The notes under the pieces are model-generated. The model was given only the letters and a program-made list of their open reading frames with translations. It did no database searches and was not told the DNA's origin. DNA of 63,644 nucleotides, the filler included, from Octopus bimaculoides (taxonomy: Eukaryota): NCBI RefSeq assembly GCF_001194135.2. It is 6 parts of 5 records of this genome, joined end to end, with 100 filler letters (N's around TTAATTAATTAA, not from the genome) between each part and the next. Parts side by side here need not be neighbours in the genome. Positions count along the whole stretch, not along the records: positions 7,606 to 32,211 come from NC_069002.1; positions 32,312 to 49,887 come from NC_068986.1; positions 49,988 to 56,580 come from NC_069002.1; positions 56,681 to 61,321 come from NC_068987.1; positions 61,422 to 63,644 come from NW_026373140.1; 1 more part is not named here. One strand, 5' to 3'. Of the stretch, positions 5,175-63,335 are shown piece after piece. The position numbers were made by a program, and so were the translations under genes. Within the stretch, counting starts at the first letter, position 1. Every line of letters starts with the position of its first letter.

Positions 5175-6703
5175 CTTTTTCTGAATCTTCAGATTTTTCA
5201 ATTTGCTAGGCCAGTTTTTAAATTGATATTAATCAAATTAATATTCAATTTTTCACCCTTATTATTTAAATTTGTATATACATACACGCACAAACATATA
5301 TGTGAATTTTTCTATTGATATACACAAATGTATATATCCATACATTCATAGTCACAAATATATACATGCATACATACACACACATATCGCTTTTTAACGG
5401 TAGAACTCGAAATAAATAACGCTATAAATAAATCCTTGTAAATATTGGGTAAACAATAGCGAGGAAATATTGGGTTAACACCATGTGAATATTGTGTTTT
5501 TAACGGTGACACTCGAAATTTACACGCACTTATAGCTTTGTTTACTTCAAGTTCTACTGTTAAAAACGATTATTTCCTATCACTCAAAGTTTCTTTGTTC
5601 TTATAGCATAAACAACACACAATTCTTGCCGGTAAGAACATATAAAATCAGGTTTCTACAAAATATAAAATCTCTATAGAATCTCCTCCAAATCTGAATA
5701 TATTTCAAGTGACAGAAAAGAACGATTAAATAAATATAACCCATGGGATGTCTTCACAGGCTCCACTGCTTCCGCAAGTTAGTATTACTGAATATGGATC
5801 AAATCAATCAATTTTGACAGAATATAACAGCTGAAATTTTAATAGTGAATGGCTTAGACCTTATTCTTTGATTTGTTTATGACATTGATAAGAGCAAGCC
5901 TTCGCGTTACGGTTATAAAACGTTCGTGCAAAATAACACTTAGATGTGAAAGCTAGAAGAAAACAAATCAGTTCACAAAGTCCGCAAAATGTGTTTGTCA
6001 CAAGCAGAAAACGGTGAAGTGGTATGACTCTCTAAAGTCTTTCCACTGCCAATACGAAATGTCATCATCGACTAAACGATACACACATTCTAGCAATTAC
6101 AGAAAATGAGACGGTTACTACCGATAAATTAAATACGTTATAAATATTAAATACATAATAATATAGGTAGCTAAAACAATTAAAAACCAAAAAGATAGAA
6201 TACATAAATAAGAGTGCAAATAGGACCTACAATTGCTAGAAATAAGAGCTAAAAAATATAACTCGATCGTTATATCTTATTGTATGTTCATATACGCTCA
6301 AACTGTTTTGAATTTTGGCGCTCGTTGTTCAACGGTTATTTTCCCTCGTTAGCTAATGGGAAACAAACTATCTCTTTAACCTGGAGTAAATTATGGATTC
6401 TCCTGAGGAGAAATGACACTTTATTGGTTAAATTTCGAAATCATATGATAGGGTCTTATCAAATTACTTCATTCGGCGAGTTTTATCTCTCTGGAGAAAG
6501 ATGTTGTTGCTTGCCGCTCGAAGTCGCTTGGACAACTCATGAGGTTCGTGATTTTGTGTGGCTATTCGAGTTATATGTTTTAGCTCTTATTTCTAGCAAT
6601 TGTAACTTCTATTTGCACCCTTATTTATGTATTCTACCTTTTTGGCTTTCAATTGATTTAGCCACCTATATTATAACGTATTTAATATATTGTTACAGTA
6701 TCT

Positions 6704-13306: not shown

Positions 13307-13579
13307 ATATAAAATGGGACAAGAACGCAAAACATCCAGAGAATTATGTGATACAAGAAAGGGACAACAAACATCGTGATAGACGATACAAAGAAAACAA
13401 GGACAAGTCATTCGGATTTTTTCTTCGTCAGTTGTGTTCCAGATTATCCTTGCAATTTCGGCTGGTTATACTCGATATCACTCCAATCTGCCCAGCCCCA
13501 AGTAAAAACTAAGCTGAGAGCATTAGATACCTTGAAAGAAAGCAGCGAATGTATACAAATACAAGGACGAAAATATATA

Positions 13580-15180: not shown

Positions 15181-15222
15181 CATATAAGCAGTTTCATCTA
15201 CTCTAGTAGATTCTTCAGATTA
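15181..15222 (-). ncRNA. Partial hammerhead-like motif
   Basis: CUGAAGA (15218-15212), 6-bp stem II AUCUAC-uaga-GUAGAU, GAAA. Helix III (CUGC) is not palindromic and stem I has only 2 bp. Confidence 0.35.
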
Positions 15223-15959: not shown

Positions 15960-17393
15960 TCATATTTTTAGCCATTCAGTTTGGTGGAGAATTTGGCTAT
16001 AAAGTGTTGTTCCATATTTTTTCTGAAGTTGTCATTCCTTGGGCATTTATAGAAGCGAAAGATCTTGAATCTTCCTTCTCCACTAGCTTCTAAGTGTTTA
16101 CTTAATGGAATTTTTTGTAGCTTTCCCTGTCGGATATGTTGTCGGTGAATTCTGGCTCGTTGGCATAACGAATTGCCAGTTTCACCTATATAGTTCTCCT
16201 TGCATGTGGGACAGGTTATGTAATATATTAAGTTTTGTGTCTTGCAATTCATGTTTGCATTTGCTTTGAATGTGTATCCGCTCTAAAATTTTATTTGTTT
16301 GTTTTCCTCTATGTATTTGTAGATGGGGTTACTGCAAATCCCACATCTACTATCTCCACATTCTTTCACAAAGAATTCGGTTTCATTCTCCGATGAGAAT
16401 TTTGCTCTTGTCAGTTGTTTTTCAGGTTTTTCGCTTGGCGTTTACTGCTTCTTGTGCAGTATTTGTTTAATAGGTTTCCCATTTTGGGGCTTTGTAAGAT
16501 TATTGATAAGTTTGATTGTATAATCTGAAGCATGTTGTTAAATCCAGGTGTGTGTTTATATATGGGCTGATATTTTTTTCTTTTCTTGAGTTCTGAGTTA
16601 TGTGATGCCCAGTTTTATTGTTCTTGAGATTCCGTTTGTTCATTAATTTGTAGTAGATATCTGTTGCGACGATGGAGTTGTGTATCTTGATGTTGATGTC
16701 TAGGAAGGGAAGTTCGTTGTAGCTGGTTTCTGTCGTGAAGTTGATAGATGGGTGCAGTGTGTTGAGGATGTTGTGGAATGTTCGTAGATCTTTTGATCTG
16801 TTCCAAAAGATGAGACAGTCATCGAGGTAGCGTTTCCACTTTTCTTGATGTCTTTTTTGAAGACGTGTTCGAAGTTAGTCCCTATTTCCTCGCATAGTTT
16901 GTTCTGGAGGAAACCCATAAATTGGTTGGTTGACATATGAAGGTGCAAATTTCGCACCCTTTAACTGTCGGTGTGACTTGTTAAATGTGTATGTGTTTTC
17001 TTCAAGTATTAATTAGGTGGCTTTGGTGATAAAGTCTGTTTTTAAGTGTTTATCTATGAAATTGTAATTTTATACCCGGTGTTTTACCGCATACAGACCC
17101 AGGGTGTGTGGTATGTTCGTGTATAAGATTGTGACATCGAAGCTTGAAGTATGGTGCTTCCGGAAACGTATTTGGAATGTGTGTAAGAAATTTTGTCATC
17201 CCTTTTGTAGTTTGGTATCAGTGGGCATAAAGGTTTGAGGAGTACATCTATGAAGTGGCTTAGCTGTTGTGTTGGTGCTTGGGAATACGCAACTATTGGT
17301 CTCATTGTGAGGTCTCTGGGCCTTTGTATTCTTATATAATGTCTCCTCTGTTCTTTTATGTCTCTCTGTATTTTAGAGCTTTTATGAACTTTA
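15960..17393 (-). mobile_element. Penelope-like element, decayed (RT + GIY-YIG endonuclease)
   Basis: ORF 15968-16252 has LIYYITCPTCKENYIGETGNSLCQRARIH (GIY-YIG). RT motifs KVHKS...MRPIVA...LSHFIDVLLKP, SFDVTILYTNIPH and WKRYLDDC are spread over frameshifted frames. Confidence 0.92.
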
Positions 17394-17394
17394 T

Positions 17395-19380
17395 CATTTC
17401 TGTGAATACATCTCAAATTACCCATATCAACATATGCACAAACAAAAACACAAAGCAAACTTCAGCAAAAAGAAATGTGCTGAGCTGAACAAATTAAAAG
17501 ATGACAAATCTATAACAATCAAAGAGGGTGATAAAGGGAGTGCAGCTGTCTTAATGGACACGGTATTCTATATAACTCAAGTACTACTCATATTAGAAGA
17601 CACAACGTATTATGAAAAAGGCCAACACTACAGTCAGCAGAAAATAATGAGAGACCTAAAATCCATGTTAAACCTGTACAGAGAACGGCTCACCGACAAA
17701 AAATATGACTATATGACCAATTTCAAAATTAAATCCAGTCAGTTCTACGGTATTCTCAAGATACACAAAAGTGAGAAAATAAGCAACGCATGCAGGATAG
17801 TCACAGGCATCATTATCAAAGTCCCTAATCCTAACGACATCAAATTGAGACCTATAATAGCAGGTCCCGCATGTGAAACCCACCGCCTCAGTAACTTTTT
17901 AGATGCCCTCTTAAAACAATTCTTCAGGCATGTCAAATGCTACATAAGGGACGACCTGGATATGGTCAATCACCTTCCTGAAACAATAAACAAAAAATAC
18001 CCTAGCAATATCCTTCGATGTAGTCAACCTCTATTCTAAAATCCTCCACAACCTAGGAATAGAGACGATTCAATTCTGGCTAGAGAATTACCCCCAATGA
18101 ACTCCCACATCGCATCAAAAAAGAATTCGTAATAGAAGGGCTAAAATTCATCTTGGAGAATAACTACATTGTCTTCTAAGACAACTTCTATCGACAAAAA
18201 TCGGGGACTGCGATGGGTACGAGAATGGGCCCCCTCCTTTGCTAACCTAGTCATGGGATATCTAGAAATCGGTTTTTATCGCAAGGTTCTAGAAAAATAC
18301 GGCAACCCATTCTCCCTCTACATAGACAATAACTGGATGAGATATTTGGATGAGGGTTTCATTCTTTGGCATGAAAGAAAGTATTGAGAGACTTAAAGAA
18401 TTCTAAGCACTTATAAATGGACTTGACGTAAACATTCAATTCACGATGAAACATAGCCATCAACAATTTTCCTCGACATCCTCATTAAGAAATCTAACAA
18501 CGTAATAGAAACAGATATATACTATAAGTCTACGGACTTCAAGCAATATCTACCGTTCAACTCATGCCAACCCAGAAACACCAGAATGAATATCCCCTGT
18601 AACCTAGGAAAAAGGATTTGTACTATAGTTTCTAATTCAAGCACCAGGGACACACGACTACCTGAACGAAAGGATATACTCATCACCAGGAACTACCCAC
18701 CTCCATTAATTGACATATGCTTTCAATGTGCCCTAGAACTCAACATCCACAAATTCAGACATCTCAAATTAAAGAAGGATTTACAACCAAAAGCCCTACC
18801 ATACATCTCCACAAGCAACCCTTTTAACAATGAAGCCTTCAACACCATCCTTCAAAACATTCCCTGCTAAAAAAGGACCACCGAATGAACTTAATCCACA
18901 AAAGACACCATCAGAAAAAGCAAAAGGCAGCCCAAATCTATGAAAAGTCTCCTAACACAAGCCCAACACTGGATCCGTCAGTAAAAATATACGGGAGACC
19001 CAACTGTGGGATATGCGTCACTCTAATTCTGGGCTCAGAGTTCTCTTTCAAACAATGAAAAGCAGCTTCACATGTGCTTCGGAGAACCTGATATACGCAC
19101 TAACCTGCTTTGGGTAGCAAGGGCGATACATAGGCCAAACAAAAAACAGCCTACGTCAAAGGACGGCTCTGCACAGATCCCAGATCAAAATTAAAAATTA
19201 AAAAAAGCAGAAAAATAGCATTCAGTCAACACATCGTCATTTGCGCCAATAACAAAAATCCACGCTTCAGAATTCTCCCCTCTATGAATTCAGGGACGAG
19301 GCAACTTATAACTAACTTATAAGTAAAGGGTCTCTCTTTATTACGAAAAGAGACAGCTTTTGAACGCATCTACAACAAAT
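17395..19380 (+). mobile_element. Penelope-like element of a second family, decayed (RT + GIY-YIG)
   Basis: ITIKEGDKGSAAVLMD, FYGILKIHKS, LRPIIAG...LSNFLDALLK, GTAMG-RMGPSFANLVMGYLE, WMRYLDEGF, and the endonuclease block NLIYALTCFG*QGRYIGQTKNSLRQR (~19055-19170). Confidence 0.92.
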
Positions 19381-19705
19381 GGATTATCCACCACAACCTT
19401 AGAATAACATTCATTCAAATATTAAAAATGATACATTTAAAAGTGATACACAAGTTTTCATTAAAGACAGTTCTAATCACTGCTATAATCTACAACGAGC
19501 CACTTTTAAGTCACTTGACCATTTAACGTCCCACTACTATCATACCATCCTGCATTCTCTTATTCCTTTTCTTCTTCTCTTTCTCCTCCTTCTTCTTTGT
19601 CTTCTTTTTCCTCTCCACCACCTCTTTACTTACTTTACTACTACTGCTGCTTAGAAAAACAACTACGCAGCTATTGTAAACAGTGCATTCAAAAAAGCAC
19701 GGAAT

Positions 19706-19756
19706 TTTGTCAGTGAACAGGTCGCAGTCTGAAAGCGACGAAAATATTTTGACAAA
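19706..19756 (+). ncRNA. Minimal type I hammerhead ribozyme, G3-C8 core variant
   Basis: UUUGUCA | GUGAACA | G | GUCGC-agucugaaa-GCGAC | GAAA | AUAU | UU | UGACAAA: 7-bp stem I, 5-bp stem II, palindromic helix III. Same strand as, and ~330 nt downstream of, the + PLE. Confidence 0.7.
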
Positions 19757-20244
19757 TTAAATTTAAATGTTGAAGCGAATCTAATGGTCTTTATGTGTTT
19801 CTTAAATGGCTTATAAACACCTTCCACGCTGCAATTGTTTTGGTTCCAGCACACGATCTCAGATCAGGTCGCTTTCTATGAAAAGTACATCTCCGCAATT
19901 CAAAAGCGATATCTCAAGAATTCAATCACTACTACCATCCACAAGAAGTCACTTTCAGGGCACCTGTCCATTTAGCATCCTTCTATCATAGCACTCCGAC
20001 ATTATTTTCTTCTTCTTCTTCTTCTTCTTCTTCTTCTTCTTCTTCTTCTTCTTCTTCTTCTTCTTCTTCTTCTTCTTCTTCTTCTTCTCTACAAACAATT
20101 CACAACGACCTCGAACCCACAAGAGTGAACAAGAGAGATAGAGACTGGCAAAAGCAAGGAAAATGCCCCTTGTATTTGAATACCATGCAAATATTCTTTT
20201 AAAATACTTTTCAATTATTCCACAATTTAATTATTTTCCATACT

Positions 20245-20284
20245 TACAGTTGAAAAAGTCTCAATTACCGAAACCGATACTGAA
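20245..20284 (+). ncRNA. Decayed minimal hammerhead motif (U3-A8)
   Basis: CAG | UUGAAAA | aGU-cucaauu-ACc | GAAA | CCGA | UA | CUG; stems are short and imperfect. Confidence 0.35.
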
Positions 20285-20369
20285 CTATTTTTTATAAAAT
20301 TATTTTAGCGTTTTCTACCTTGACTTTTTTCCATAGATATATCAACTCGTGTGTTCCTTTTGAAAAAAG

Positions 20370-20560
20370 TTATTATTGTCGGAGATGTATCCAGGCGTAG
20401 GAGATTGGTAGGGGATTTTTTGAAGAAATTTGTCCAGTGAACATTTGAATTTTACGGGATCCGTTTCAGTTTTGACGTAATTTGGCATGGTATTAATGAG
20501 AGTTGGACCGGTTGAGGTAAAGTAATTGTGATGTAATGTTGCTATGTCTTGCGAGTTTCA
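20370..20560 (-). mobile_element. CR1/L2-group LINE 3' end fragment
   Basis: Minus-strand translation FTSTGPTLINTMPNYVKTETDPVKFKCSLDKFLQKIPYQSPTPGY resembles the CR1-type ORF2 C-terminus. Confidence 0.4.
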
Positions 20561-20929
20561 TTTTTGTAGTTGGTGGATAGCACGCGGGCCAAGTCTAGGA
20601 TGGATTTTAAAATTGATGCCAACATCATTTGCGCAATATTGATGGAATATTTGCCACATAACAAAAATGATGTAGCGCCCCTGGTGGTGTTGGAGAGATT
20701 AGAGACTGACTTGTTTTAGTCGACCCCAATAATCAGTGCCTCTCCTGCCGTCTATCTTTCTTGTTATTGACCTCTGTAGTGCTTCGACTTTCATAATGAC
20801 TTGCATTGTATGGGGGACAACAGTAGGCAACGGTATTCAAGGTGGGGGTCGGGCAAAAAGTAGAGTAGAGAAGGATGATGGTATAGGCGTCTCTAGACTG
20901 GAAAGGTATCAGAATCCATATATATTTGT

Positions 20930-21232
20930 TGTTGGCGCTCCGTCGTTTACGACGTCGAGAGTTCCAGTTGATCTGATCAACGGAACAGCCTGCTCGTGAA
21001 ATTCACGTGCAAGTGGCTGAGGATTCCACAGACACGTGTACCCTTAACGTAGTTCTCGGGGATATTCAGCGTGACATAGCGTGACAAGGCTGGCCCTTTG
21101 AAATACAGATACAACAGAAACAAGAAGAAAGACTGAAAGAGTGCTGCAGGGTTCGCCTCCATCCCCTGCCGGAGCTTCGTGGAGCTTTAGGTGTTTTCGC
21201 TCAATAAACTCTCACAACGCCCGGTCTGGGAA
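20930..21232 (-). mobile_element. SINE family B, 5'-truncated
   Basis: Homologous to 39935-40299. Confidence 0.85.
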
Positions 21233-22599
21233 TCATTACATGCAATCATCACATGCAATCATCACATGCAATCATCACATCAATTTAAATAAATGCTATC
21301 TTCACCTGTACAAAATATAGAATTTCTTAACAAGTAGGACACATTAATAAAATTTTTCTTAAATATTTTAACGGAGTAAGAAGTTGGAAGAAATTCATGT
21401 TGTCGTTATTGTAGCAAAGCGGCTAAGAATAGACTAAAATATCTTAGTATCACATAGAGGATAGTAGAGCCCTATGGCTGTAAGGTTTCTAATTCATTTC
21501 TAATTTATATATCTCCTTATCATCTATTAAATATCAGACTCAGTATTATATATAAAACCCTCTTTGTATATGTATCTGTATGCATTATTGTACACTTTAC
21601 ACATACTTATAGCAGCACATATTTTTCCAGTATTTATATATAGTTTATACTTTAGATTTTATAATTTTTGCTTAAATATGTCTATGTGTTACCATTATCT
21701 CAATATCCCGCTTCTGATTCATGGCTTAAGATTTATAGATATTATGTATTTTTTTCCAGATATTCCATATGTAAGTACCTTGAGCATTCTTCATAGAAAC
21801 AACCCAATAATTAATTAATTAAGCACAAGAATGGCTTTTAAACTGATTCTACATAAACTTTCCTTTTAATGTTTATAAGTGATTCATAGACACCTTTTAG
21901 CTATTTTGGTTATGATATCGTTTGGAATTCTTAAGTTTTATTTTATACAGCATAATGTTCCCCATCGTATCCCTAATAAGTTTTACCTGTATTAGCATCT
22001 TTAGTTTCTCAGTGACTTGCCCTTTTAATTGATAGTTAACATCATGATTTAAAGTCTACTCCCACACTGCGTCTTTTTCCTGATAGACAGTTGCTTCTAT
22101 CAAATTGACTCTTCCTAATGTCTTATTTCCTTTCTCTTGAGTAAAAGGGATACCTATGATATCTATGACCATACCTAGCCATGAACTGTCAACTCACTCT
22201 TGTTCTTTATTCAAAATTGACTCAGTCTGCTGGTCTCAGATTTAATAGATGATAAAGAGATAAATAAATTAGAAATCAATTACAAACCTCACAACCCAAT
22301 GACCCTACAGTGCTCCATGTGATTCTAAGAAATTGTAGTCTATTCTTAGCCACGTTGCTACAATAACGACAGGATGAATTACTTCTATCTTCTTACTCTG
22401 TTAAAATGTATAAGATAAATTTATATTAATGTGTCCTACTTGTTAAATTATTCTATACTTTGTGGCGCGTTTTAATTGATGTAATGCTTGCATTGTTCAA
22501 TGAATTGCAGCCGCTTGAAACGGTCATACTGCATTACTACTTGATATCAAGTTGTATATATATATATATATATATANNNNNNNNNNAGAGTGAAATTTA

Positions 22600-22880
22600 T
22601 AGAAAGACAAAAGAGGAAAAAAGGTGTATGAACATCAACCAGGTGTTTTAGCTGAGGAAAAATGAAAACGTATTTTACGTTTCAAGCCTACGCTGTTCAA
22701 CAGAAAGGAATAAGAGAAAATAAACGGAGAAAGTAAAAAACTTGTAGATTTCAGTGGTGGCTATATACATCCATAAGTTATCTATTGATTAACAGAACAA
22801 AGTACATCTACATACCTATACCTGAATATATATATGTATGCGTTTTTATGTATATGTTTATGATTGTGTGAGTAATATAT
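22600..22880 (-). mobile_element. Short dispersed repeat with a hammerhead-like motif (22672-22705)
   Basis: Minus strand UUU CUGUUGA A CAGC-guag-GCUU GAAA CG UA AAA; similar to the + copy around 54600-54750. Confidence 0.45.
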
Positions 22881-51367: not shown

Positions 51368-51590
51368 AATAGTACAAACAAGAGCACTCAGAGAGCGCAA
51401 ACCTCCGTCAAGGCAACACCAACGTCGCCTCAACGATTAGCCGGAGATGATTCTAAAAATGAGAATATCTGAAATAAACTCGACTACTCTCACAAACGAG
51501 AATGAATCCGACCGCTCTCAAAAATTATGTAAAACGAAAAAAAACGGGAAAATAATCCAGAATCCTTCTCCGGTACCTTATCGATCCGAA
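51368..51590 (+). mobile_element. Helentron/DINE-like non-autonomous element 5' part
   Basis: Begins AACAAGAGCACTCAGAGAGCGCAAACCTCCGTCAAGGC, resembling the CCTCCGCCAAGG subterminal motif of such elements (recalled from memory, not searched). Confidence 0.4.
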
Positions 51591-53119
51591 TGGTAGTCAT
51601 GGAATGTGAAGATGCGTGTTTGGGCCATGTTTGTAATGCTGTGCGTGTGTCATCTGCATTGGGAACATGGACAGTTTTCTCTGTGAAGGCTTTTTTAGTC
51701 TATCCACTGAAGATCTATAGGGAAAAACTTATCCGTGCGTGAGAGAAAACAGAAAAGACCTGCATACAGTGCTGTTAACGGACATCGGGTCGAAGTATCC
51801 CCGTAGCCTCATAAACATGAGGCTACATTGATACCTAGACCTACTGTCCGCATTGACAGTAATGTGCCATCCAACAGCAATATTAGCAGATTAACCAGAT
51901 CTCACACCAATACATTTGCCACGCCTAGAGATATTATTCACTTCACTCCAAAACATGACTATTTCTGCCATATTTCACTCNNNNNNNNNNTGTATGTATG
52001 TATGTATGTATGTATGTATGTATGTATGTATATTTATATCCTCATCCTGGTCTAGCGACCGTCCATGTTTATTTTCGTTCGGTTTTCTCGTATGTCTCCA
52101 CTGTCCTGTTTTTGTTGATGATTGTCCTGGTTTTCCATTTGCCTGTCTCGTTGTCTGCGTATTGAACTCATTTGTTTTCGTATTTCGTGTTGATATGCAT
52201 GTATGTATATACATACATGTCCATATACATATATAAAAAGGTGTGTGTGTTTGTGAGTGTGCGTGCGTTCGTGTGTGCACCACTACTGTCACACCTTTAC
52301 AAACGTGATATTACCCTCTGTGTACTAAATTTCACTCGCAGATTAATGGCAAATATCGTCGCTGGTAATGCAATGTTGTGAGCTGAAACCTGGAATTATC
52401 TCATTCCAAGTCTTGTCTTTTCTTTCTTTTTTCCCCAGATATCGGTGATATTTTAAAACCAAAGTCGTTTGTCACGGGTCGGTTAAATTTTGTATTTTAT
52501 ACTCGAATAAATTTGCACAAGACACGTCTTAGCTATTACATTCATCCATTGGCCATGCAACGATAAAATGTAAAGAGTACATTCTGTGGACTTAGAACCA
52601 AAATATAAAGACAAAGAACTAAATGGAATCGAAAGGAATATACAAATATTACAATCTTAGCCCATAGATGCTAACCACAAGCATTGATATTGTTTTATAG
52701 TTTATTAATTGTCGTGTTGTTACGCTACATCACGCAAAATCTTTGTGTTCAACCACTTGCTAGAGTCTGTAGTTCTCTCATGCCACATCACATTAGTTCG
52801 TTGGGAAGATTAATACAACGTTATTATTCACCAAATTCAATACAACTTATCTATACATTGAGATACACATATCTGTGACTGCATGTATGTATGTATATAT
52901 GTGTCTGTCTGTGTATTTGTATGCATATATAAAAGTGTGTGTTTGTGTGTTATTGTTCTTCGATTCAGTGCACACCTGAAAGATGGAGGAAATACTACTC
53001 GCCTATGAAATTCAAAACACTCTCTGATGAATTTTTATCAGAGCACTTGGGGACAGCAGTAATGATTCGAGACAGACTGAATTACTCGGAAGTCCTCCCT
53101 TTCTGACAACATCAAGAGG

Positions 53120-53330
53120 AATTTCGTCATAGTACATTGAATCAATACCTATGTATGGCTCTTCAGCATGGATACTTAGAAACTTGAAATTAAGCTTGGC
53201 AACGTACAACAGAGTTCTTCGTGCTTTACTCAACATTTCTTGGCAACAACACTATACAAAGCAGCGATTGAATCACTACGATAATCAGAGAAAGAAGAAA
53301 ACGTTATCCAAGACACTGTTGGAGAAGCAG
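53120..53330 (+). mobile_element. RTE-clade LINE ORF2 3' fragment
   Basis: MYGSSAWIL...TYNRVLRALLNISWQQH resembles RTE LYGxETWTL...YTRMLRxALNISW. Confidence 0.45.
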
Positions 53331-54613
53331 AGTTGATATATCCAGCGATCTTCTCTCGAATAGACATACAAAGTATCAAGTATCACAAGAACAAAACGAG
53401 AATATAACGCTCATCATATGAAATACACTGGATATCAATCTGAAGATAGGATATGAAAAGTGTTATGGAAGATCACGAAATATAGCGTGGAAGAGTTTCT
53501 TTGGATTAGGTAAGTCTCCCGATCGGATATATAGACAGATAGGCAGACAGACAGACAGGCAGTCAGGCAGACAGACAGACAGGCAGTCAGGCAGACAGGC
53601 AGATTGAGAGATAGATACATGCGTGTGTATAAACAGAGCATTCCAGAATTTTTTACGCTTTTGTCGGAGGACAGGTATATCTGTACCAGATGATTATAAT
53701 TTTTCTATATCAAATCTATAAATCTGAAAAGGTAACCAGTCGACTTCCGTTATTCCAGATTGAAGGAGACGGTTGCAACTTCGATTTGAAGACACCGTAC
53801 TAAACGCTTCATGTCAGAGCTGACTAGTTTGCAGAATGCAGTCGGCACGTGAAGTCAATATGGAAGCTGGCAATAACACTTTTTGGTTAAACTAAACACA
53901 AGCACTAGATTGCTTCTGGATTCAATTATAGGAACCAGAATATCTTTCTGCACAATAGTTCAAGCAAATCAAGTCCCCCGCATGTTCCGTTCTTCGAAGG
54001 TAAGGTCTCGCCGACATCCGCTAGATTTTCCCCAACCAGACAGTAAAATCTATGTGTGTGTGTGTGTGTGCGCGCGTGCGCGCAGTGAACAGGAATTGAC
54101 TTTGAATCCCTTTAACAATTCAAAATAATGACTTTATTCCTCTTAATTCTATCTCAGTTCATCTAATTGTATATATTTATCGTTACTTTTCATAAAATAG
54201 CTTTTATGTTTTTTTTTTAAATCCAATGTGCATTTGCGCTTTTTTTCTTACTTTCCCCATATATCTACCACGTGTAGTTTATTTTTCTCTTTGAAACCTA
54301 TTTCAATTATATATATATATAGTATAGTATAGTATAGTATAGTATAGTATAGTATAGTATAGTATAGTATAGTATAGTATAGACTGTCTCTCACACACCC
54401 TTCAGACTGCCCTGACTAACTATTGCCTTATTCTATCTAAGCAAATAATCAAAAACAGATACATATCACACATACCGACCATCTTTGCACTCTCTTTTAC
54501 CAGAAAGCACTTTCTCTTTGTCCTATATCCGGTCACTTAAAAAATGTAACTACTCATTTACTATTAGCATTTTTTTTTTCTTTTTCCTTTTTCTTTGGAG
54601 TTTCCAGTTTTTC

Positions 54614-54652
54614 CCGTTTCCGAAGTAGAGCTATGCTCGAAACGTAAAACGG
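54614..54652 (+). ncRNA. Hammerhead-like motif with a mutated core (probably inactive)
   Basis: CCGUUU | CCGAAGU | A | GAGC-uau-GCUC | GAAA | CG | UA | AAACGG: perfect 6-bp stem I and 4-bp stem II, core U4C and A9U. Confidence 0.5.
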
Positions 54653-55149
54653 TTACTCTTTTCCTTCTCCGAGCATATTATTACTACTTTGCATGTGTTA
54701 CATCCTCACGTTGTTACTCTTTTCTTGTTGTCTTTTTCTCAGTGTTTTTAATTAATTATATATACGCCCACATGATATAATTTATATATAAACACAAATG
54801 TCAATCAATCATTTCTTCCTCCCTCTGTTTATCTGTAGATCTCTCTTTCTCTATCTATCTATTTCTTTTTCTCTCTATCTGTCTCACTATGTCGCCAATC
54901 CCGTTTATTAATCTGTTTTCTGAATAAAATGAAATTATTTTGTTAGCAACGTTAACATATAAACAAGTTGAGATTTAGAATTGTACGTAATTTATTTTCA
55001 TTTATAAGAAACATTGAAAGTTAAAATAAATTGGAAAACTTTCGTTTCAATTAGAATTTATGTAGAACTGATTTCTGAATATAAGTATTCAAAAATTTTA
55101 TGATTTGTTTTGAACATAACGTGTTGTAAATTAATGCATTAGTAATGAT

Positions 55150-55770
55150 TTCAATTTTTTGCACAAAGCCAGTAACTTCGGAGGAGAGAATAAGTCAATT
55201 ACATTGACCCCTGTGCTCAATTGGTCCTTATTTTATCGAACCCGCAATAATGAAAACCAAAGTTGACCTCAACTCGGTGTGCTCACAATTCTGCCAGCTC
55301 GCCGCTTTTTTAATGGTGTCAAATTTTTGTACAAGGCCAGAAGTTTTGGGTGATGTGCCAGATCGATGAAATTGACCTCTATGTTTACCAAATTATAATT
55401 ATTTTATCGCCTCTGAAAGGCTGAATGGCAAAGTCGTTTTCGGCAGAAACAGAACCAAGAACATAAAGATGGACGAAATGACACTAAGCAATCTTCCCGG
55501 CTTCCTAAGGACTCTGCCGGATCGCCACTTTTTTTTAAATACATTAATAATCCTTTCTACTATAAGCACAATGCCTGAATTTTGGGGGAGGGGTGTTAGT
55601 CGATTACATCGACCCCCAGTGCGTAACAGGTACTTATACTTAATTCATCGACCCCGAAAGGATGAAATGTAAAGTCGACCTCGGTGGAAATTGAACTCAG
55701 AACGTAGCAACGGACGAAATACCGCTAAGCATTTCGTCCAGCACGCTTACCGAGTCTGCCATCTCACCAC
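55150..55770 (-). mobile_element. Three adjacent SINE family C copies
   Basis: Repeated TTTTATCGACCCCGAAAGGATGAA..AAAGTCGACCTCGG..GAA-like blocks at ~55150-55290, 55315-55520 and 55555-55770. Confidence 0.7.
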
Positions 55771-56261
55771 TCTTTTTTATACATTAATACATTAGTACTG
55801 ATAACAAGTATCGAGTTATAAAACAGACACAGCGCCACATACATTGTAATTGTGAACAACACTGCACATTGAAAACAACACTGTAACATTTAAAAACTTT
55901 TTATATTTTTTTTGCGGGATCAATGAAATGAACGTTGAATTTGCGGAATATTTTATCATTGAAGAGTGGAGAGTGCATGGTTTAGGCAAGCGACTAATGA
56001 TAATGTAAAATATCTATATTCCCAAAACTATCAGCTATACGGCCACAAACATTTACTCTACACAATGTTAAAATCATGGCACAAATAATTCCTCCTCAAC
56101 ATTGTTTTATCCATTGATTGTAGTATTATCTGGCGTCTGTCATTCCTATCATTCTCTTTCTACATTCATCCCTCTCCCACCTATTTACTTCTTAAATCCC
56201 TTGCATAAAATCTTGGTGTACATTTATGCATTTATGGAACATCATTGACTTATAAAAATAT

Positions 56262-56580
56262 TATTATTATTATTATTCAGTAGTTTTATTTTTATAACGT
56301 GCTTTCACTTCACTACCGAGCGCAGCTCTGTGCGCCTTGGGTATGTGCTGTGGTTTGCTGTGGTGCTCTTATGTTTACTGTATTGAAAGAGTTTTGCGTA
56401 GAATGTGTGCAGTACCCAGTAGTGCAATTTTCTGTATGTTATATATATTTGTAAGTCCTGGTGTTTTTGTTATGTATGTGTCTGAATATTTATTTATTAT
56501 ACCTAAGGCACCTACTATGATAGGAATTGTTTCTGTTTTTAGATTCCACATTCGAGTTATCTCTATTTCCAGGTCTTTGT
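56262..56580 (-). mobile_element. R4/Dong-type (REL endonuclease) non-LTR retrotransposon 3' end in (TAA)n
   Basis: Reverse complement is closely similar to 60525-60860; ends in a TAA tract and is cut by a gap. Confidence 0.8.
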
Positions 56581-56680
56581 NNNNNNNNNNNNNNNNNNNN
56601 NNNNNNNNNNNNNNNNNNNNNNNNTTAATTAATTAANNNNNNNNNNNNNNNNNNNNNNNNNNNNNNNNNNNNNNNNNNNN

Positions 56681-56720
<40 letters not shown>

Positions 56721-56904
56721 GGCGGTGCTCCAGCATGGCCGCAGTCAAATGACTGAAACAAGTAAAAGAGTAAAAGAATAATAATAATAATAATAATTAA
56801 CTGGAACGACTCATGTACTGAGAAGAGCATTATCGCTGTGAAAACAACATCCATTCATGAATTTGTTTATTTATTTAATATCCACAACTGTTGTGAATAC
56901 TCAC

Positions 56905-57205
56905 CCTTTCCTCTCTCTCTGAGTATTCGAGAAAGTAAACATTTGGACTCTCAACAAGGGAAGAACTAATGTCAGCGAACGAAACACTTAAACAAAAAGT
57001 TTAAGCAAAAGCTCAGAGAATACGCAGATTTGAGAAAAGAATCAAATTCTACAAGCAAAATAAAATGTTCAAATCCAATGCCAAATTATTTTACAGGGAA
57101 ATAGGGAATGAAAAAAAAAATGACCATTGAAAATCCACCCCTAATGGAAGAGGTTGAAAACTTTTGGAAAGGGATCTGGAGTGATGAGAAACCATACAAT
57201 GAACA
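56905..57205 (+). mobile_element. R4/Dong-type pre-RT ORF fragment
   Basis: AKAQRIRRFEKRIKFYKQNKMFKSNAKLFYREI...PPLMEEVENFWKGIWSDE resembles the region just upstream of RT in R4-clade elements. Confidence 0.6.
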
Positions 57206-57249
57206 TATATTGTGACACAGGCCTAGGTAGATACATAACACGCAGAGCG

Positions 57250-59740
57250 TATCATATGATCTACCATGAAGTTATAACTTCTTTTCTTATGTGAGAATAG
57301 AATTGCAAACCTCTGAAAACGAGTGAGTTGTGGGACTTTCTTATACAAATCGAAAGAATAAATGTGAATCTTTGATCATTATTAGGTATAGTATGGCAAA
57401 TTGCCACATCAATAGCCACAGTATGTCTACTCCTCCACGCGGTGGGTGTTGAGCAAGATGGACCGTCTGATCTGCCGAAAATACCCCTTCCGCAAAATGA
57501 GAATAGAGGGATGAGATGCTCTCGTCTGATCAGACCTGAAAAAAGGCAGAACATGGTCAGGTGCTAGTAGATAGTGGAGTAATGTGGTGGGGGATCTCAA
57601 CATCTGCCCGGAGTAGCTTCATCTCGGCCCATTTCTGAATAAGCCTAGCCATCATGCTTGTAATGCTTGTTACCAAGTTCCAGTTCATGTCCACCTGAAA
57701 ATCTGGAACAAACCAAACACGAAAAAATTTAACCGGGCCGTTCGTTCAGCGTTTTCAGATACTTCTGGGTGGCATAGATCTGTATTTGGTTGATACTGGC
57801 TTCTATCACTGTTTCGTTGTTCTTTAGATCGGTACTGGCCATCTCGATATTCTTGGTCTCCGACATCATGTCGATGACGACATCCGCATATGCCGACATA
57901 GATCTTTTGCATCCTTATTTGTGCGGGACGCACCTAGAAGTTTCTAGTTTCTGCCATAGTGGTTCTAGAGTTAATACATACAGAAGGGATAAGACATGAG
58001 GGGACAACCTTAAACGCATGATTTCCAGCGAAATTTACCCTGACCACGTTGCAGATGCGACCGTACTTTGTTGCAATACAACTCTTAAAACGAAACTCAA
58101 ACCAACTGCCTTGAGGACAGTCGCTTAGTAGTGACGGTCGCATCACTTTCATGTATCGTATGATGTGGAGGTTCACTTAGATAGATCTGTTTGTCATGTC
58201 ACATCGCTGCGTATCAACGGACACTCCATTAGCAACAAGCGCTAACTTTTTGCTAACAAGTTGGTCAAAATCTTAAACAATTCACTTAACTGAGTCCTAG
58301 ACTGAAAATTGTAATTCGGATGCTTTCCTAGCAGTACCACCACTCAGATTTCAGAAGTGGAAATTCTCCTGTTTTATTGTCAGTGGTTGTGGTCGTCAGT
58401 CAAAAGATATTGAAAACCTATGGCATAGAGAAATAAAAGATGTGAGATAGAGCACCCTAATCAATCAATTTCTCACACGTGTGGCCAGTTATCACTTCCC
58501 GTATTTCAACAGCATTTATTAGCTTTTCTCAGCACACCGCTTCCATTCTTGTACGTTGCGGCTGGCCATTGACCTAGGTGCTGAAATTTATCCTGTGATC
58601 CGACTCATCACTCGTCTCCAACAGCCGAGTGAATTGTCGCTGAAAAACCGCCCAGAAACGAAGTCTAGGAGTCTAATCGTGGTTTTGTTGAAACTTTACG
58701 TTACTACTCACCTGACTCTTCAAGCTGTATTCCTTCCTACGTATCGTAAAGTACGCGTCTTATCGCTGACAAAGCAGCCTTTTTCTTTCTCTTTGAAAAA
58801 TTGATCGAATGCCAACTTTGCTGCGAGTACGCTGATCGTAATGCCTGTTCTAAGCGGCTATTCTAGGTTTCTAACTAGGGCTCCTTATAATCCAGCTTTC
58901 TCTATTATTTCTTCCTTACTAAACTTTAACGAACCACAATTTGTTAATGACAATTAACTAACTTGCTAACCCGATTTCTGTTAGCTTGGCATGCTCGGAA
59001 AGGACGTGTTTAGCTTACAGCAACCGGACTCCGGTCTACAAATCTTGTCTAGGTCGACCTTACAAAACACAAAATTGTGGTCTCTGTAACCGACTATTTT
59101 GAATTGTAGGTAACCTACATAGTACCTCTAGGATGGCCTACGGAATACTCTATCTAGATTCAATCTGGGTGAGCCGATGCAGGTTGTCCATCGGTACAAT
59201 TGGAAAATTCCTGCGAGTACCTGCCGAACATTTGCAAATGACCAAGTAAGTTTGTTAGGCTTTTGCACTCTGACTCCTACCAGTTAACACCAAGCTGTTC
59301 GAGAGTGTATCCAAGATGACATTCCAATCTTCTAATCGCACTACAGAGCAAAACTTTCTAGGATGATCTCTAAACAGCAGACTAATCTGATCGACCATCC
59401 CTGTTAGGGCGTAGTGGGCTATTGGCGTAGCTTTCGCTACTAGCCACGTCCACCAGCTTGTTTTCAGCCTTCAAGGATATGATTCACATCGTAAGATCCA
59501 GAATTTCTAAATCAACTCGGCGGCCTCGACTCCCGATCTCTGCCATAATTAACCGATAATCATCGAAAGTGGGTATGGAGAATGCTGCTTAGAAAATTCT
59601 GGTTTCGCTGATAACTCCAATATCTATTTCTAGTGATCTGAGTTCGTTAAAGAGTTGCCATGCTTCCGACGCAACCCTTGGTTACGCGCAACCCTTGGTT
59701 ACGCGCAACCACACGACCTCTACTGAGTGTTGACATGCTA
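57250..59740 (-). mobile_element. Decayed L1/Tx1-type LINE ORF2 (APE endonuclease + RT), not captured by the ORF track
   Basis: Manual minus-strand translation gives ELRSLEIDIGVISETR (~59600-59640), EDWNVILD (59311-59332), FKILTNLLAK, NLHIIRY, LSLLYVLTLEPL and SAYADVVI (57879-57896, YADD box). Confidence 0.8.
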
Positions 59741-60159
59741 GACAAAAGGCGGAAATTAAAAAGGACCACTCACTTTATTCCTGTAGAAGGATAGGTGTTC
59801 CGTCTTTGATTACAACGACTTACTGATGGAAACAGGGATAAGTCTTTTGTTAATAGTCCCTGGGATACTTGGTTTTCAAAAGGTTTTATATTTTAGCTTC
59901 TTTTTATGATTTCCTATGTGCGTCGCTATGCTATTTGTAGCGATATCCATTCGTTGATATTTGTGGTTCATTAATTTTCTTGTTGCTTGTGTCAATGACT
60001 GTAGTTAATAAGTTTCCATTTGTTCATGTTGGGGTAGATAATGATGTGGGTGTGAATTAGGCTGTTTGTGTTTGTAATATTGGTAATGGTAGTGATGATG
60101 ACGACGACGATGGTGATGATGATGAAGGCGTTGATAGTGTTGGTGCTACTGTTGAAAAG

Positions 60160-60860
60160 AAGCATAAGTAACTTCAGAATATGTGGAAATGGACAAGAAA
60201 CAATAAACCATATTATCTCTGGTTGCCCAGTGCTGGCTAAGAAGGAATATATCCACAGACACGACAGAGTTGGTACCTACATACACTGGAAGCTATGCCA
60301 ACACCATGGAATAACAAAAAAAGAAAAAGTATAGGCACACGCCTGAAAAGGTCACAGAAAATGAGAAAGCAACAATACTATGGGATTAGCCAATTCACAC
60401 AGATAGAGAAATTAAGGCCAGTAGGACAGATATAGTTGTCAGAGATCACGAAGAAAAAAAACAAAACAGAAACTTTCTAATTGATATATCAATACCAACA
60501 GATGACAACGTTTCCCTAAAAGGAATGGAGAAACTTTCAAAATGCAAAGACCTGGAAATAGTTGTAACTCGAATGTGGAGTCTAAAAATAGAAGCAATTT
60601 CTATCAGTGTGGGCGCCTTAGGTATAATAAAAAAATATTCAGACAAATACATAACAAAAACACCAGGACTAAGAAATATATATAACATACAGAAAATAGC
60701 ATTACTAGACACTGCACACATCCTACGTAAAACACTTTCAATACAGTAACCATAAGAGCGTCACAACTAACCACAGCACATACCCAAGGCACACAGAGCT
60801 GTGCTCGATAGTGCAGTGAAAGCACTTGAAATAAATAAGACTACAGAATAATAATAAAAA
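60160..60860 (+). mobile_element. R4/Dong-type non-LTR retrotransposon C-terminus (CCHC-like knuckle + PD-(D/E)xK REL domain) with TAA tail
   Basis: RICGNGQETINHIISGCPVLAKKEYIHRHD...TDIVV...LIDISIP...EKLSKCKDLEI...VGALG; ends ctacagaataataataa. Confidence 0.85.
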
Positions 60861-61474
60861 TAATACCTGACTATGTGTCCAAAATAAAAAAGAAAATGCA
60901 GCTCCTCGCATGGGACACGAACTGACAACACTACAGAGTAAGAAGTTCGATCAATAACCAGTTGACCACAACAGTCCTCTTTCTATCACGTTGCCAACAA
61001 ATAACTATGTAAAAAGCAAGAAAAAAACAAAACCCAGAACAAAATAAAAACAAAAATGAAAACAAAAATATAAAAAGTCTTCAATCTGACCCAGCCACCA
61101 AAACGCTATGTAATTTGTCAATGTTTTCTGCTCTGCCAATTGCAAACAGCTTGTGTGAAGAATACAAAGCTGGTCGATAAAGTTAGGATATGAAGATTAA
61201 TTGCTTAGATCGTAGGGGAATGTGTGGCGTCTCAATATGCTTGTATAGATATTTATATAGTTATTAACGTTGCATACACACACACACACATATATAAAGA
61301 TATATATATATATATATATATNNNNNNNNNNNNNNNNNNNNNNNNNNNNNNNNNNNNNNNNNNNNTTAATTAATTAANNNNNNNNNNNNNNNNNNNNNNN
61401 NNNNNNNNNNNNNNNNNNNNNATATATATATATATATATATATTTCTAAGTCTCTCTAAAGGAGACTACGGGAG

Positions 61475-61865
61475 ATATTAATAGTTATCGCCAAGCTAAC
61501 ATGGTAGTCCAGTAAAACAGGACGAATGCTGCCGTTAATTAGCTCCAAGAGGCCATCGCCTCTTGATAGCTATGTGACACACGAATCTGTATCCATTATA
61601 ACCTTCGAACAGGGAGACGGTCAGTAGCGACGCCTGTTGGGTTCGGCTGGTCTACATTGATAAGGGGTAAATACCCTGAAACTAGTCTGTAGATGCCAAA
61701 CCAGCAAGCGGAAGCGGGTGACGTCCCCTGTTCGAAGGTTATAATGGACACAGGATCGTGTGTCACGTAGCTAGCTAGAGGCGATGACCTCATGGAACTA
61801 ATGAACGGCAGCATCCTTCCTATTTTTCTGGACTGCCATGTTAGCTTGGTGATAACTATTAATAT
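61475..61865. mobile_element. Foldback element (~145-bp arms, ~88% identical) with a hammerhead motif in its loop
   Basis: 61475-61619 versus the reverse complement of 61722-61865: 17 differences in 145 positions; TATTAA/TTAATA ends. Confidence 0.88.
61651..61693 (+). ncRNA. Minimal type I hammerhead ribozyme, U3-A8 core variant
   Basis: UCUACA | UUGAUAA | GGGGU-aaau-ACCCU | GAAA | CUAG | UC | UGUAGA: perfect 6-bp stem I, 5-bp stem II (one G-U), palindromic helix III, GUC cleavage triplet. Confidence 0.75.
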
Positions 61866-62390
61866 ATACTCTTTCTCTCTTTACTCTTTTACTTGTTTCA
61901 GTCATTTGACTGCGGCCATGCTGGAGCACCGCCTTTATAGTCGACCAAACGACACCAGAACTTTTTCTTTGCAAGCCAAGTACTTATTCTATCAGGTTTC
62001 CTTATTTAATCTAATTTGTGTTGGTGTTCCAATGGCACATTGATAGAATGGAAAGATTACAAATTGTGGTAGCATTTGTTTTGCGCATTTCTCATATTGA
62101 GAAATAAGGAAACCTTCTTCATTGAAAAATATAAGCCAAAACTTAAACCATTTCTAACATTTTTAAATAAGGAAACTCACCTCATTGAAAAAATATAAAG
62201 CAAAACCTAACCACTTGTAACATTCTATTCCTTCTAAACCAAATCATGTTAAATTAATCAAACCTAGTCATCCCCAACATTTTTTATTATCTCCCTTATA
62301 CCGGAAAAAATCCCTGATTACCTTCCTCTATCTGGAACTCCGTATTTTACACCATAACGAAGACATGATATGATATAGCTAAAGAAATTT

Positions 62391-62429
62391 GAGAAATTTG
62401 AAAAGAAAATACGAAACCGGTTATTTCTC
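62391..62429 (+). ncRNA. Minimal hammerhead-like motif, U3-A8, vestigial stem II
   Basis: GAGAAAU | UUGAAAA | G-aaaaua-C | GAAA | CCGG | UU | AUUUCUC: perfect 7-bp stem I and palindromic helix III. Confidence 0.5.
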
Positions 62430-62612
62430 CAAAAAACAATGTTACCATACTCAAAATTTATAACATTTTTCTAACATAACGATTTGAATATATACTTTAA
62501 CCATATAACACAAGCCTTCTGTAGTTTTTTTCACTCATTTTAGACTTTTATACATCCAACCACGTGCTTTCACATACCAACTCTCTCACCTATATATGTA
62601 TATATACATACG

Positions 62613-62674
<62 letters not shown>

Positions 62675-62956
62675 NNNNNNNNNNNNNNNNNNNNNNNNNN
62701 NNNNNNNNNNNNNNNNNNNNNNNNNNNNNNNNNNNNNNNNNNNNNNNNNNNNNNNNNNNNNNNNNNNNNNNNNNNNNNNNNNNNNNNNNNNNNNNNNNNN
62801 NNNNNNNNNNNNNNNNNNNNNNNNNNNNNNNNNNNNNNNNNNNNNNNNNNNNNNNNNNNNNNNNNNNNNNNNNNNNNNNNNNNNNNNNNNNNNNATATTG
62901 ATCAATTAAAACCAGTGGTCTAGCATATTAAAAAATCCGAAGATTAAAATTATATT

Positions 62957-63306
62957 ACATACAAGAATAAGAGGAATGACCAGCAAATGTGGATTCCTGA
63001 ATGCTAGAAATAGATGCTGAATTATCCAACCACGAAAAAGAATGTTCTCTGTAGAAAAAAATCAGCGACACAACAGACTGTAAATGAGTAAGACAAATGA
63101 AAAAATACTAAAATACGATTAATTTACCATGGTACGTAAATTAATCGTATTTTAGTATTTTTTCATTTGTCTTACTCATTTACAGTCTGTTGTGTCGCTG
63201 ATTTTTTTCTACTGAGAACATTCTTTTTCGTGGTTGGATGATTCAGCATCTATTTCTAGCATTCAGGAATCTACATTTGCTGGTCATTCATCTTATTCTT
63301 GTATGT
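62957..63306. repeat. Near-perfect palindrome: 171-bp arms, 8-nt loop
   Basis: 62957-63127 versus the reverse complement of 63136-63306: ungapped, 4 mismatches. Confidence 0.95.
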
Positions 63307-63335
63307 TATATATATATATATATATATACATATAT

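What the first reader, a model, noticed from the sequence alone, without database searches (positions are those of the whole stretch)
19706..62429. Window-wide covariation of hammerhead positions 3 and 8 across unrelated repeat families
Seen: eight hammerhead-like motifs with different stems. Cores: CUGACGA (13425-13431, -), CUGAAGA (15212-15218, -), GUGAACA (19713), UUGAAAA (20250), CUGUUGA (22696-22702, -), CCGAAGU (54620), UUGAUAA (61657), UUGAAAA (62398). Positions 3 and 8 are complementary in all eight (4 C-G, 3 U-A, 1 G-C), even where other positions have decayed. Inferred: this genome may hold a large, under-annotated population of variant-core, dimer-type ribozymes spread by Penelope-derived non-autonomous elements. 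Caveats: the search was by eye and may be biased, and U-A could arise from general C-to-T/G-to-A drift, though single mutants would then be expected to outnumber doubles.
Basis: partly seen in the sequence, partly recalled or inferred. Interest (0 to 1): 0.75.

Follow-up and report, generated by a model that had tools for sequence, protein, structure and literature searches.

The report
Penelope hammerheads swap their core pair
Jumping-gene families in this animal genome carry hammerhead-type RNA motifs in which one normally fixed base pair of the catalytic core occurs in all four Watson-Crick forms, and every well-sampled family keeps it paired, which likely means that the predicted self-cutting fold is under selection, although cutting itself is untested.

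Summary
Real, and larger than the window shows. The motifs are minimal type I hammerheads of Penelope-like retroelements. All 20 families with 3 or more scored copies have a Watson-Crick majority; none a mismatch majority. Single copies decay at about the neutral rate, so the signal lies in family founders: about 7 double changes on a Penelope protein tree, not eight independent cases. Most variant families are related, and several are 5'-truncated copies of coding elements. Canonical C-G still dominates by copy number. Natural U3-A8 in Penelope hammerheads is published (PMC4209133, PMC3088659); I found no report of natural A3-U8 or G3-C8 families, but four key papers were not held. The scan noted U-A and G-C swaps before in a phage (e1-5996897, not checked). 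Against: one family of thousands of copies fixes A6U; cleavage is untested. New variant of a known kind; interest 0.52.

The parts
6400..6453 (+).
   Evidence: passes strict descriptor; one relative, also C-G
13390..13440 (-). Hammerhead-like 5' half (core 13425-13431, C-G) without GAAA or A15.1-U16.1; not a complete hammerhead
   Evidence: 5 relatives (4 C-G, 1 C-U), none with GAAA
15180..15225 (-). Decayed hammerhead, C3-G8 (core 15212-15218), about 750 nt 3' of a Penelope GIY-YIG remnant
   Evidence: no relative among fetched loci
15968..17461 (-). Broken Penelope-like ORF (RT fragment, C-terminal GIY-YIG) belonging to the 15212 motif
   Evidence: Pfam GIY-YIG E 2.1e-6 at 15971-16282, weak RVT_1 E 0.017; tblastn
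17377..19310 (+). Broken Penelope-like ORF (RT, thumb, frameshifted GIY-YIG) ending about 400 nt 5' of the G3-C8 motif
   Evidence: link to the motif rests on this one locus
19696..19899 (+). About 200-nt repeat unit shared by the G3-C8 family; most genomic copies are this short unit, often with an inverted partner
19706..19756 (+). Intact hammerhead motif, G3-C8 (core 19713-19719), extra G after A9, 5-bp stem II, 4-nt palindrome, 7-bp stem I; predicted cut after 19749
   Evidence: family 749 matches vs 0 control, 84 G-C of 100 listed (by eye); 33 of 34
20245..20284 (+). Decayed hammerhead, U3-A8 (core 20250-20256)
   Evidence: 13 of 16 relatives U-A, 2 C-A, 1 U-C (15 of the 16 were fetched by searches that fixed position 3 as C or not-C)
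22667..22732 (-). Hammerhead motif of a high-copy family with C3-G8 and a family-wide A6U change (core 22697-22703)
   Evidence: 20 of 20 relatives U6, 18 of 20 C-G; about 25 of 100 listed rows
54085..54197 (+).
   Evidence: blast match 54101-54197, 88%; sequence
54614..54652 (+). Decayed hammerhead (C4, U9) of a C3-G8 family (core 54620-54626)
   Evidence: 3 of 3 relatives have the canonical core
61440..61865 (+). ORF-less repeat insertion with inverted arms 61475-61614 / 61726-61865 beside (TA)n; family unit about 360 nt, head-to-tail dimers at two loci (retrozyme-like)
   Evidence: no same-strand Penelope protein hit upstream in 62 loci, some fetched twice
61650..61694 (+). Intact hammerhead motif, U3-A8 (core 61657-61663), 4-nt palindrome; predicted cut after 61687
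   Evidence: 106 matches vs 0 control, 95 U-A of 100 listed, 0 C-G (by eye)
61994..62542 (+). 5'-truncated Penelope copy: end of GIY-YIG, 3' UTR, hammerhead, tail, with a short inverted piece at its 5' end
62391..62429 (+). Intact minimal hammerhead motif, U3-A8 (core 62398-62404), 1-bp stem II, 4-nt palindrome; predicted cut after 62422
   Evidence: 29 of 32 relatives U-A

Best explanation
The motifs are minimal type I hammerhead motifs at the 3' ends of Penelope-like retroelements and their short derivatives, whose family majorities show all four Watson-Crick pairs at core positions 3 and 8, likely because founder elements are selected to keep a fold that is predicted, not shown, to cut the RNA as a dimer. 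Shown: the motifs, their place 200-1,150 nt behind a Penelope GIY-YIG domain on the same strand in most coding-linked families, palindromic stem III, family-level pairing, neutral-rate decay of single copies. Inferred: two motifs pair through the palindrome, cut after H17 and trim the element RNA from a longer transcript; only founders that restore the 3-8 pair by a second change go on to multiply; the thousands of truncated copies inherit the founder's pair and then decay.
For: Family tables with 3 and 8 free: U-A 95 of 100 listed, G-C 84 of 100, A-U 85 of 100 and 92 of 100, all counted by eye, controls 0. Descriptor hits with non-C3 and stem I intact: 53 of 62 Watson-Crick against 33.0 by permutation, 0 of 20,000 (copies are not independent). 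Inside one A-U family, 6 G-C against 2 G-U and 0 A-C (Fisher 2e-8; one founder event). A suspected C-A family turned out 9 U-A of 13. Families chosen by GIY-YIG, blind to the core: 6 U-A, 1 A-U, 2 C-G, 1 unresolved. Seven changes by parsimony on a 41-row protein tree, each at both positions; independent change at position 8 never gave 17 of 17 complementary families in 3 x 20,000 runs, best 13. Published: C3-G8 is a tertiary pair (PMC3884650, passages); in an anole Penelope hammerhead single changes kill cleavage and the G-C swap partly restores it (PMC11167929, passages).
Against: No cleavage was measured. A family with thousands of copies has fixed A6U at a normally invariant position, and the 13425 family lacks GAAA, so a family can multiply with a damaged core. 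In a full double-mutant scan of one hammerhead only the G-C swap rescued; U-A and A-U did not (PMC9901934, passages). Cleavage was not needed for insertion in vitro in the anole element (PMC11167929). Minor mismatch groups exist: 4 G-G among 100 of the G-C family, 3 C-A of 13, 2 diverged A-C relatives of the A-U family and a two-copy family split U-A / C-A; one published representative is U3-G8 (PMC4209133 supplement, Fig. S3). Deep tree nodes are weak, three motif-to-ORF links rest on one locus each, and only some stem III classes were searched genome-wide.
Confidence: 0.68

Rival explanations
1. The 3-8 pair is selected, but for a folded RNA shape that the element's own protein binds (or another non-catalytic role), not for cutting.
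For: The anole Penelope hammerhead cuts only with the protein present and cutting is dispensable for insertion in vitro; no RNA-seq reads ended at the cut site there (PMC11167929, passages). The A6U family is among the largest here. U-A and A-U swaps had low activity in one laboratory scan (PMC9901934). Genomic copies contain the whole motif plus a tail, so their template RNA was not cut at the 3' motif.
Against: The 3-8 pair belongs to the active conformation (PMC3884650, passages); the other catalytic positions and H17 are kept in nearly all families, though the descriptors required most of them.
Confidence: 0.22
2. No selection: a few founder elements drifted (C-to-T, G-to-A bias) and happened to multiply, and kinship inflates the pattern.
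For: Single copies carry mismatches at 2.5-8% per site against 3.5-5.7% divergence in the 3' tail. Most variant families fall in one group of lineages. U-A is the commonest variant.
Against: Drift predicts many single-mismatch families and none was found among 20; A-U and G-C states need transversions or AT-to-GC changes; tree simulation 0 of 20,000 at three rates.
Confidence: 0.07
3. Ascertainment: the reader and my patterns picked complementary cases.
For: Family patterns were designed after seeing some copies.
Against: Patterns left 3 and 8 free or split them into C and not-C with 8 free; the GIY-YIG sample was blind to the core; control hits in window shuffles were 0 of 3 Watson-Crick.
Confidence: 0.03

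Closest known systems
Minimal type I hammerheads of Penelope-like elements, with the U3-A8 variant of Schistosoma mansoni (Cervera and de la Pena 2014, PMC4209133; main text parts 1-2 of 4 read, supplement file 2 part 2 of 3 read and searched, file 1 not readable)
   Same: Type I, short palindromic stem III, optional extra base after A9, place in Penelope terminal repeats, mostly single truncated copies, many families per genome, U3-A8 covariation (about 1,300 hits there).
   Different: Only U3-A8 is reported there; the Fig. S3 rows I saw are C-G except two U-A and one U-G. Here A3-U8 and G3-C8 are family states too, and non-C-G pairs prevail among the coding lineages sampled.
Natural core variants of hammerheads (Perreault et al. 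2011, PMC3088659; section on core variation read, other passages seen)
   Same: Natural C3-G8 to U3-A8 covariation; stems II of one or two pairs; A6 variants with low activity.
   Different: A few scattered examples, U-A only; no family-level or tree-level analysis.
Poseidon element of the green anole (Frangieh et al. 2024, PMC11167929; passages)
   Same: Penelope hammerhead whose cleavage depends on the 3-8 pair; engineered G3-C8 partly rescues.
   Different: Engineered swap in a C-G element; cleavage found dispensable for insertion in vitro. The natural swaps here point to selection in vivo.
Metazoan non-LTR retrozymes (Cervera and de la Pena 2020, PMC7229834, passages; Li et al. 2026, 10.64898/2026.07.22.740005, part 1 of 5 read)
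   Same: The 61657 family: about 360-nt ORF-less unit with a type I hammerhead, head-to-tail dimers.
   Different: Mostly single or fold-back insertions, U3-A8 core; circles not shown.
Small Penelope-associated hammerhead variants that cleave as dimers (Lunse, Weinberg, Breaker 2017; not held, seen only as a citation in PMC6765202 and PMC10085705)
   Same: Diminished palindromic stem III, dimer cleavage (as summarised in PMC6765202, passages).
   Different: Whether its data set holds A3-U8 or G3-C8 cores could not be checked; this is the main risk to novelty.

Membership tests
Minimal type I hammerhead of Penelope-like elements | Invariant core U4 G5 A6 A9, G12 A13 A14, A15.1-U16.1, H17 | tested here: met
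   Met at 6403, 19713, 61657, 62398 and in the families of 20250 and 54620
Minimal type I hammerhead of Penelope-like elements | Same core in the 22697 and 13425 families | tested here: not met
   U6 in 20 of 20 relatives of 22697; no GAAA in 5 of 5 relatives of 13425
Minimal type I hammerhead of Penelope-like elements | Stems I and II, short palindromic stem III | tested here: met
   stem I differs between subfamilies with pairing kept
Minimal type I hammerhead of Penelope-like elements | C3-G8 consensus pair | tested here: not met
   U-A, A-U and G-C majorities; the weaker feature, a Watson-Crick 3-8 pair, is met in 20 of 20 families
Minimal type I hammerhead of Penelope-like elements | Placed behind a Penelope ORF on the same strand | tested here: met
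   16 of 48, 18 of 37 and 24 of 40 loci (some fetched twice) for the 62398 family and the two A-U families; one locus each for 19713, 20250 and 15212 families; 0 of 62 for the 61657 family
Minimal type I hammerhead of Penelope-like elements | Self-cleavage after H17, as a dimer | not testable with these tools
   Folding only: homodimer energies are lower than twice the monomer for the intact variant sites, partly through swapped stems
Endonuclease-bearing Penelope-like element | RT followed by C-terminal GIY-YIG; 5' truncation; inverted partner copies | tested here: met
Endonuclease-bearing Penelope-like element | Clade (Neptune, Poseidon/Penelope, Nematis) | not tested
   No reference elements were aligned; (TA)n flanks suggest Neptune by recall and PMC8557442 passages only
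Non-LTR retrozyme (61657 family) | Short ORF-less unit with a type I hammerhead | tested here: met
   360-nt unit; no Penelope protein hit
Non-LTR retrozyme (61657 family) | Tandem arrays | tested here: inconclusive
   Head-to-tail dimers at two distinct places among 60 fetched loci; no longer array seen
Non-LTR retrozyme (61657 family) | Accumulates as circular RNA | not testable with these tools
   Circular fold z = -2.5 for one unit; nothing more

The most novel reading that the evidence does not exclude
One group of Penelope retroelements has walked the hammerhead's catalytic tertiary pair through all four Watson-Crick forms by repeated double changes, and the natural A3-U8 and G3-C8 motifs are working ribozymes. 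That would be the first natural A3-U8 hammerhead, against a laboratory scan in which only the G-C swap rescued, and evolutionary evidence that hammerhead chemistry matters to Penelope elements in the animal; descriptors fixed on C3-G8 would have missed the hammerheads of most coding lineages in such genomes.
Probability: 0.45. Interest if true: 0.68.

Novelty: new variant of a known kind. Interest (0 to 1): 0.52.

Why it matters
Why Penelope elements carry hammerheads is open: PMC8557442 calls their function unclear, and PMC11167929 found cleavage dispensable for insertion in vitro. Repeated compensatory change at a pair that forms in the active core is the kind of evidence that separates a selected function from a passenger, and it hands over natural pairs of near-identical motifs (A-U against G-C inside one family) to test. 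It also widens the natural sequence space of the best-studied small ribozyme and shows that standard descriptors undercount it.

Tried and rejected
Rfam scan of the window: no hammerhead family, only microsatellite-driven microRNA hits. Random sampling: 172 kb of G000 gave one convincing motif (C-G) and one weak one, too sparse for a 16-cell table, so I moved to pattern searches. Suspected C3-A8 family: rejected. An antisense G3-C8-like motif inside the GIY-YIG coding region of one A-U family: rejected, its stems are mostly G-U and it lies in conserved coding sequence. Excess of copies starting at the predicted cut site: not seen in small bystander samples, 2 to 16 per family and none for one family; no conclusion. 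RNA: no RNA holder listed for the 61657 stretch. Three raw RNA runs of coded organism B, about 6% of each read, laid 230-282 reads each at 85% likeness, both directions alike, with no pile-up of ends; such libraries need not show a cut, so this counts neither way. One A-U copy was covered in four runs of organisms A, B and C with no listed difference at positions 3 or 8 while position 7 and loop II varied (3 rows not shown, contigs may be DNA): a hint of conservation only. Papers not held: Lunse 2017, Przybilski and Hammann 2007, Nelson and Uhlenbeck 2008, a 2012 review. PMC6155905 and PMC10085705 (passages) and PMC2920678 (part 1 of 2) had nothing on natural 3-8 swaps. Stem III classes RYRY, RRYY, YRYR, none and 6-8 nt were not searched genome-wide with a generic pattern.
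Full report
The window is six separate stretches of a 2.34-Gb animal genome, G000; probably an octopus, which is my guess and the wording of earlier notes, not something I tested.

Check of the observation. A type I hammerhead descriptor with positions 3, 7 and 8 free passes 19713 (G-C), 61657 and 62398 (U-A) and a missed site, 6403 (C-G). That is 4 hits against 0.05 per shuffle, 0 of 60 shuffles reaching 4. The 19713 motif has an extra G after A9 and a 5-bp stem II. 15212, 20250 and 54620 are decayed. 22697 has U6 in 20 of 20 relatives. 13425 has no GAAA in 5 of 5 relatives. Eight sites of which four are the consensus cannot show covariation, so I went to the genome.

Family tables, 3 and 8 free; counts by eye from the first 100 rows listed in position order, totals from the tool. 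61657 family: 106 matches, control 0; 95 U-A, 2 C-A, 1 U-G, 1 G-A, 1 U-U, 0 C-G. 19713 family: 749, control 0; 84 G-C, 5 G-U, 4 G-G, 4 A-C, 1 G-A, 1 C-C, 1 U-C. 62398 family: 29 U-A of 32 blast-ranked relatives. So U-A and G-C are founder states, not decay of C-G copies.

Generic searches. With position 3 not C and a YYRR stem III: 3,252 matches against 1,171 control. I fetched all 100 listed matches; 62 have at least 4 of 5 stem I pairs: 40 U-A, 11 A-U, 2 G-C, 9 mismatches; the 38 failing rows are mixed. 53 Watson-Crick against 33.0 by permutation, 0 of 20,000, with the caveat that copies are kin. The same pattern with C3 gave 393 against 180; of the first 30, 13 pass, 9 C-G and 4 C-A. This revealed A3-U8 families. 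One has 168 matches, control 0: 85 A-U, 6 G-C, 3 A-A, 2 G-U, 2 A-G, 2 U-U, 0 A-C; all six G-C copies share one loop II type, held by 11 rows (6 G-C, 3 A-U, 1 G-U, 1 U-U). The other has 150, control 0: 92 A-U, 3 G-U, 2 U-U, 2 A-G, 1 A-C. Two C-A hits that looked like a mismatch family belong to a family of 13 with 9 U-A, 3 C-A, 1 U-G. With a 2-nt CG stem III and both positions free there are 23,549 matches against 6,948; by eye about 66 of 100 rows are one canonical family (about 57 C-G) and about 25 are the A6U family caught in a shifted register. Variant pairs therefore number in the low thousands, roughly a tenth of motifs in the classes searched (inference).

A sample blind to the core. Pfam GIY-YIG gave 112 matches among 150 scored of 2,390 candidates; I examined 90 of the 112. 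13 had a downstream motif at score 9 or more against 3 on the opposite strand; most gave no call. Grouped into families and projected: U-A in six (11 of 11, 4 of 4, 7 of 10, 2 of 2, 3 of 3, 4 of 4), A-U in one, C-G in two (6 of 9, 4 of 4), and one two-copy family split U-A / C-A. Over the session, 20 families or subfamilies had three or more scored copies (10 U-A, 2 A-U, 2 G-C, 6 C-G, the last including the incomplete 13425 family and the A6U family); all have a Watson-Crick majority.

Copies against founders. Mismatches at 3 or 8 run at 2.5, 4.5, 4 and 8% per site in the four large tables, against 5.2, 5.3, 5.7 and 3.5% divergence in the 3' tails of fetched copies.

What carries the motifs. 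The 62398 family and both A-U families lie 200-300 nt behind a GIY-YIG end on the same strand in 16 of 48, 18 of 37 and 24 of 40 loci (some fetched twice), with variable 5' truncation. The G-C family is mostly a 200-nt unit starting about 25 nt before the core, often with an inverted partner; only the window's copy follows a Penelope ORF. The 61657 family has no Penelope hit in 62 loci and a 360-nt unit with head-to-tail dimers at two places.

Tree. From thumb and GIY-YIG pieces stitched across frameshifts, a first tree (49 rows; L401 and L376 left out) put the then-known coding-linked variant families, apart from one distant U-A lineage, in one clade with support 94. A second (41 rows; L479 and L465 left out; FastTree, midpoint root) needs 7 changes of state; that clade has 0.85, and U-A also occurs in three lineages outside it. 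Deep nodes are weak, so the ancestral state and the order of events are open; the better-supported local contrasts are G-C beside U-A (0.915), G-C inside A-U, A-U beside U-A, and C-G beside U-A (0.977). Letting position 8 change independently on this tree never made all 17 labelled families complementary (best 13; 3 x 20,000 runs). The simulation is crude, one label (the split two-copy family) was set to U-A, and three links rest on one locus each.

Mechanism. Most likely the founders are selected for the active hammerhead fold, in which 3 and 8 pair (PMC3884650, passages): two motifs join through the palindrome, cut after H17 and trim the element RNA; a founder that changes one partner spreads only after the second change. 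The anatomy and the family pattern are shown; pairing of two motifs, cutting and its purpose are inferred. The serious rival is selection for a protein-bound fold without chemistry, fed by the A6U family, by PMC11167929 (cleavage protein-assisted and dispensable in vitro) and by PMC9901934 (only the G-C swap rescued).

Against what is known. U3-A8 in nature: PMC3088659; in Penelope hammerheads, about 1,300 hits: PMC4209133. G3-C8 I saw only as an engineered variant (PMC3884650, PMC9901934, PMC11167929). Searches for natural A3-U8 or G3-C8 found no report, but four relevant papers were not held and one supplement file was unreadable. Verdict: a real, family-level compensatory signal; a new variant of a known kind; interest 0.52.

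Noticed in passing
window 22667-22732 (-); L206, L212-L214, L217, L220 and about 25 of 100 rows: A repeat family with probably thousands of copies has fixed A6U in an otherwise complete hammerhead core (20 of 20 relatives). Either a tolerated new core variant or a dead ribozyme in a successful element.
   Followed up: partly
G000 C1:6477019, 6669759, 131217762, 143936780: Four G3-G8 copies among 100 of the G-C family, three sharing one loop variant; may be a small mismatch sublineage or an intermediate from C-G.
   Followed up: no
window 54085-54197 (+); L073, L172, L468: Older relatives of the A-U family have G3-C8 (window, L468) or A3-C8 (L073, L172) cores; state of that subfamily unresolved.
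   Followed up: partly
L310 and G000 C3:162877657: Sister forms of the 61657 family with a changed stem I pair; the two copies seen are U-G and C-A at 3/8.
   Followed up: no
window 13390-13440 (-); L067, L068, L070, L203, L467: Family with a hammerhead-like 5' core half but no GAAA behind stem II; may be another core variant or not a hammerhead.
   Followed up: partly
window 1365-1931 (-): Uninterrupted 188-aa frame matching p25-alpha (TPPP family), Pfam E 2.6e-31; single-exon gene or retrocopy.
   Followed up: no
window 56259-56579 and 60390-60865: Two copies (88% alike, on different stretches) of a frame that by recall resembles the endonuclease end of a non-LTR retrotransposon; no Pfam hit below E 0.05.
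   Followed up: no
window 62951-63312: Near-perfect fold-back: 177-nt arms, 97% complementary, 8-nt spacer.
   Followed up: no
window 20926-21140, 39930-40080, 42858-42983, 46205-46419: Four copies of one dispersed short repeat, 89-95% alike.
   Followed up: no
In the YYRR stem III class non-C3 motifs exceed C3 motifs about tenfold above control (about 2,080 against 210), whereas the 2-nt CG class is almost all C-G: stem III type and core pair go together, probably through kinship.
   Followed up: partly
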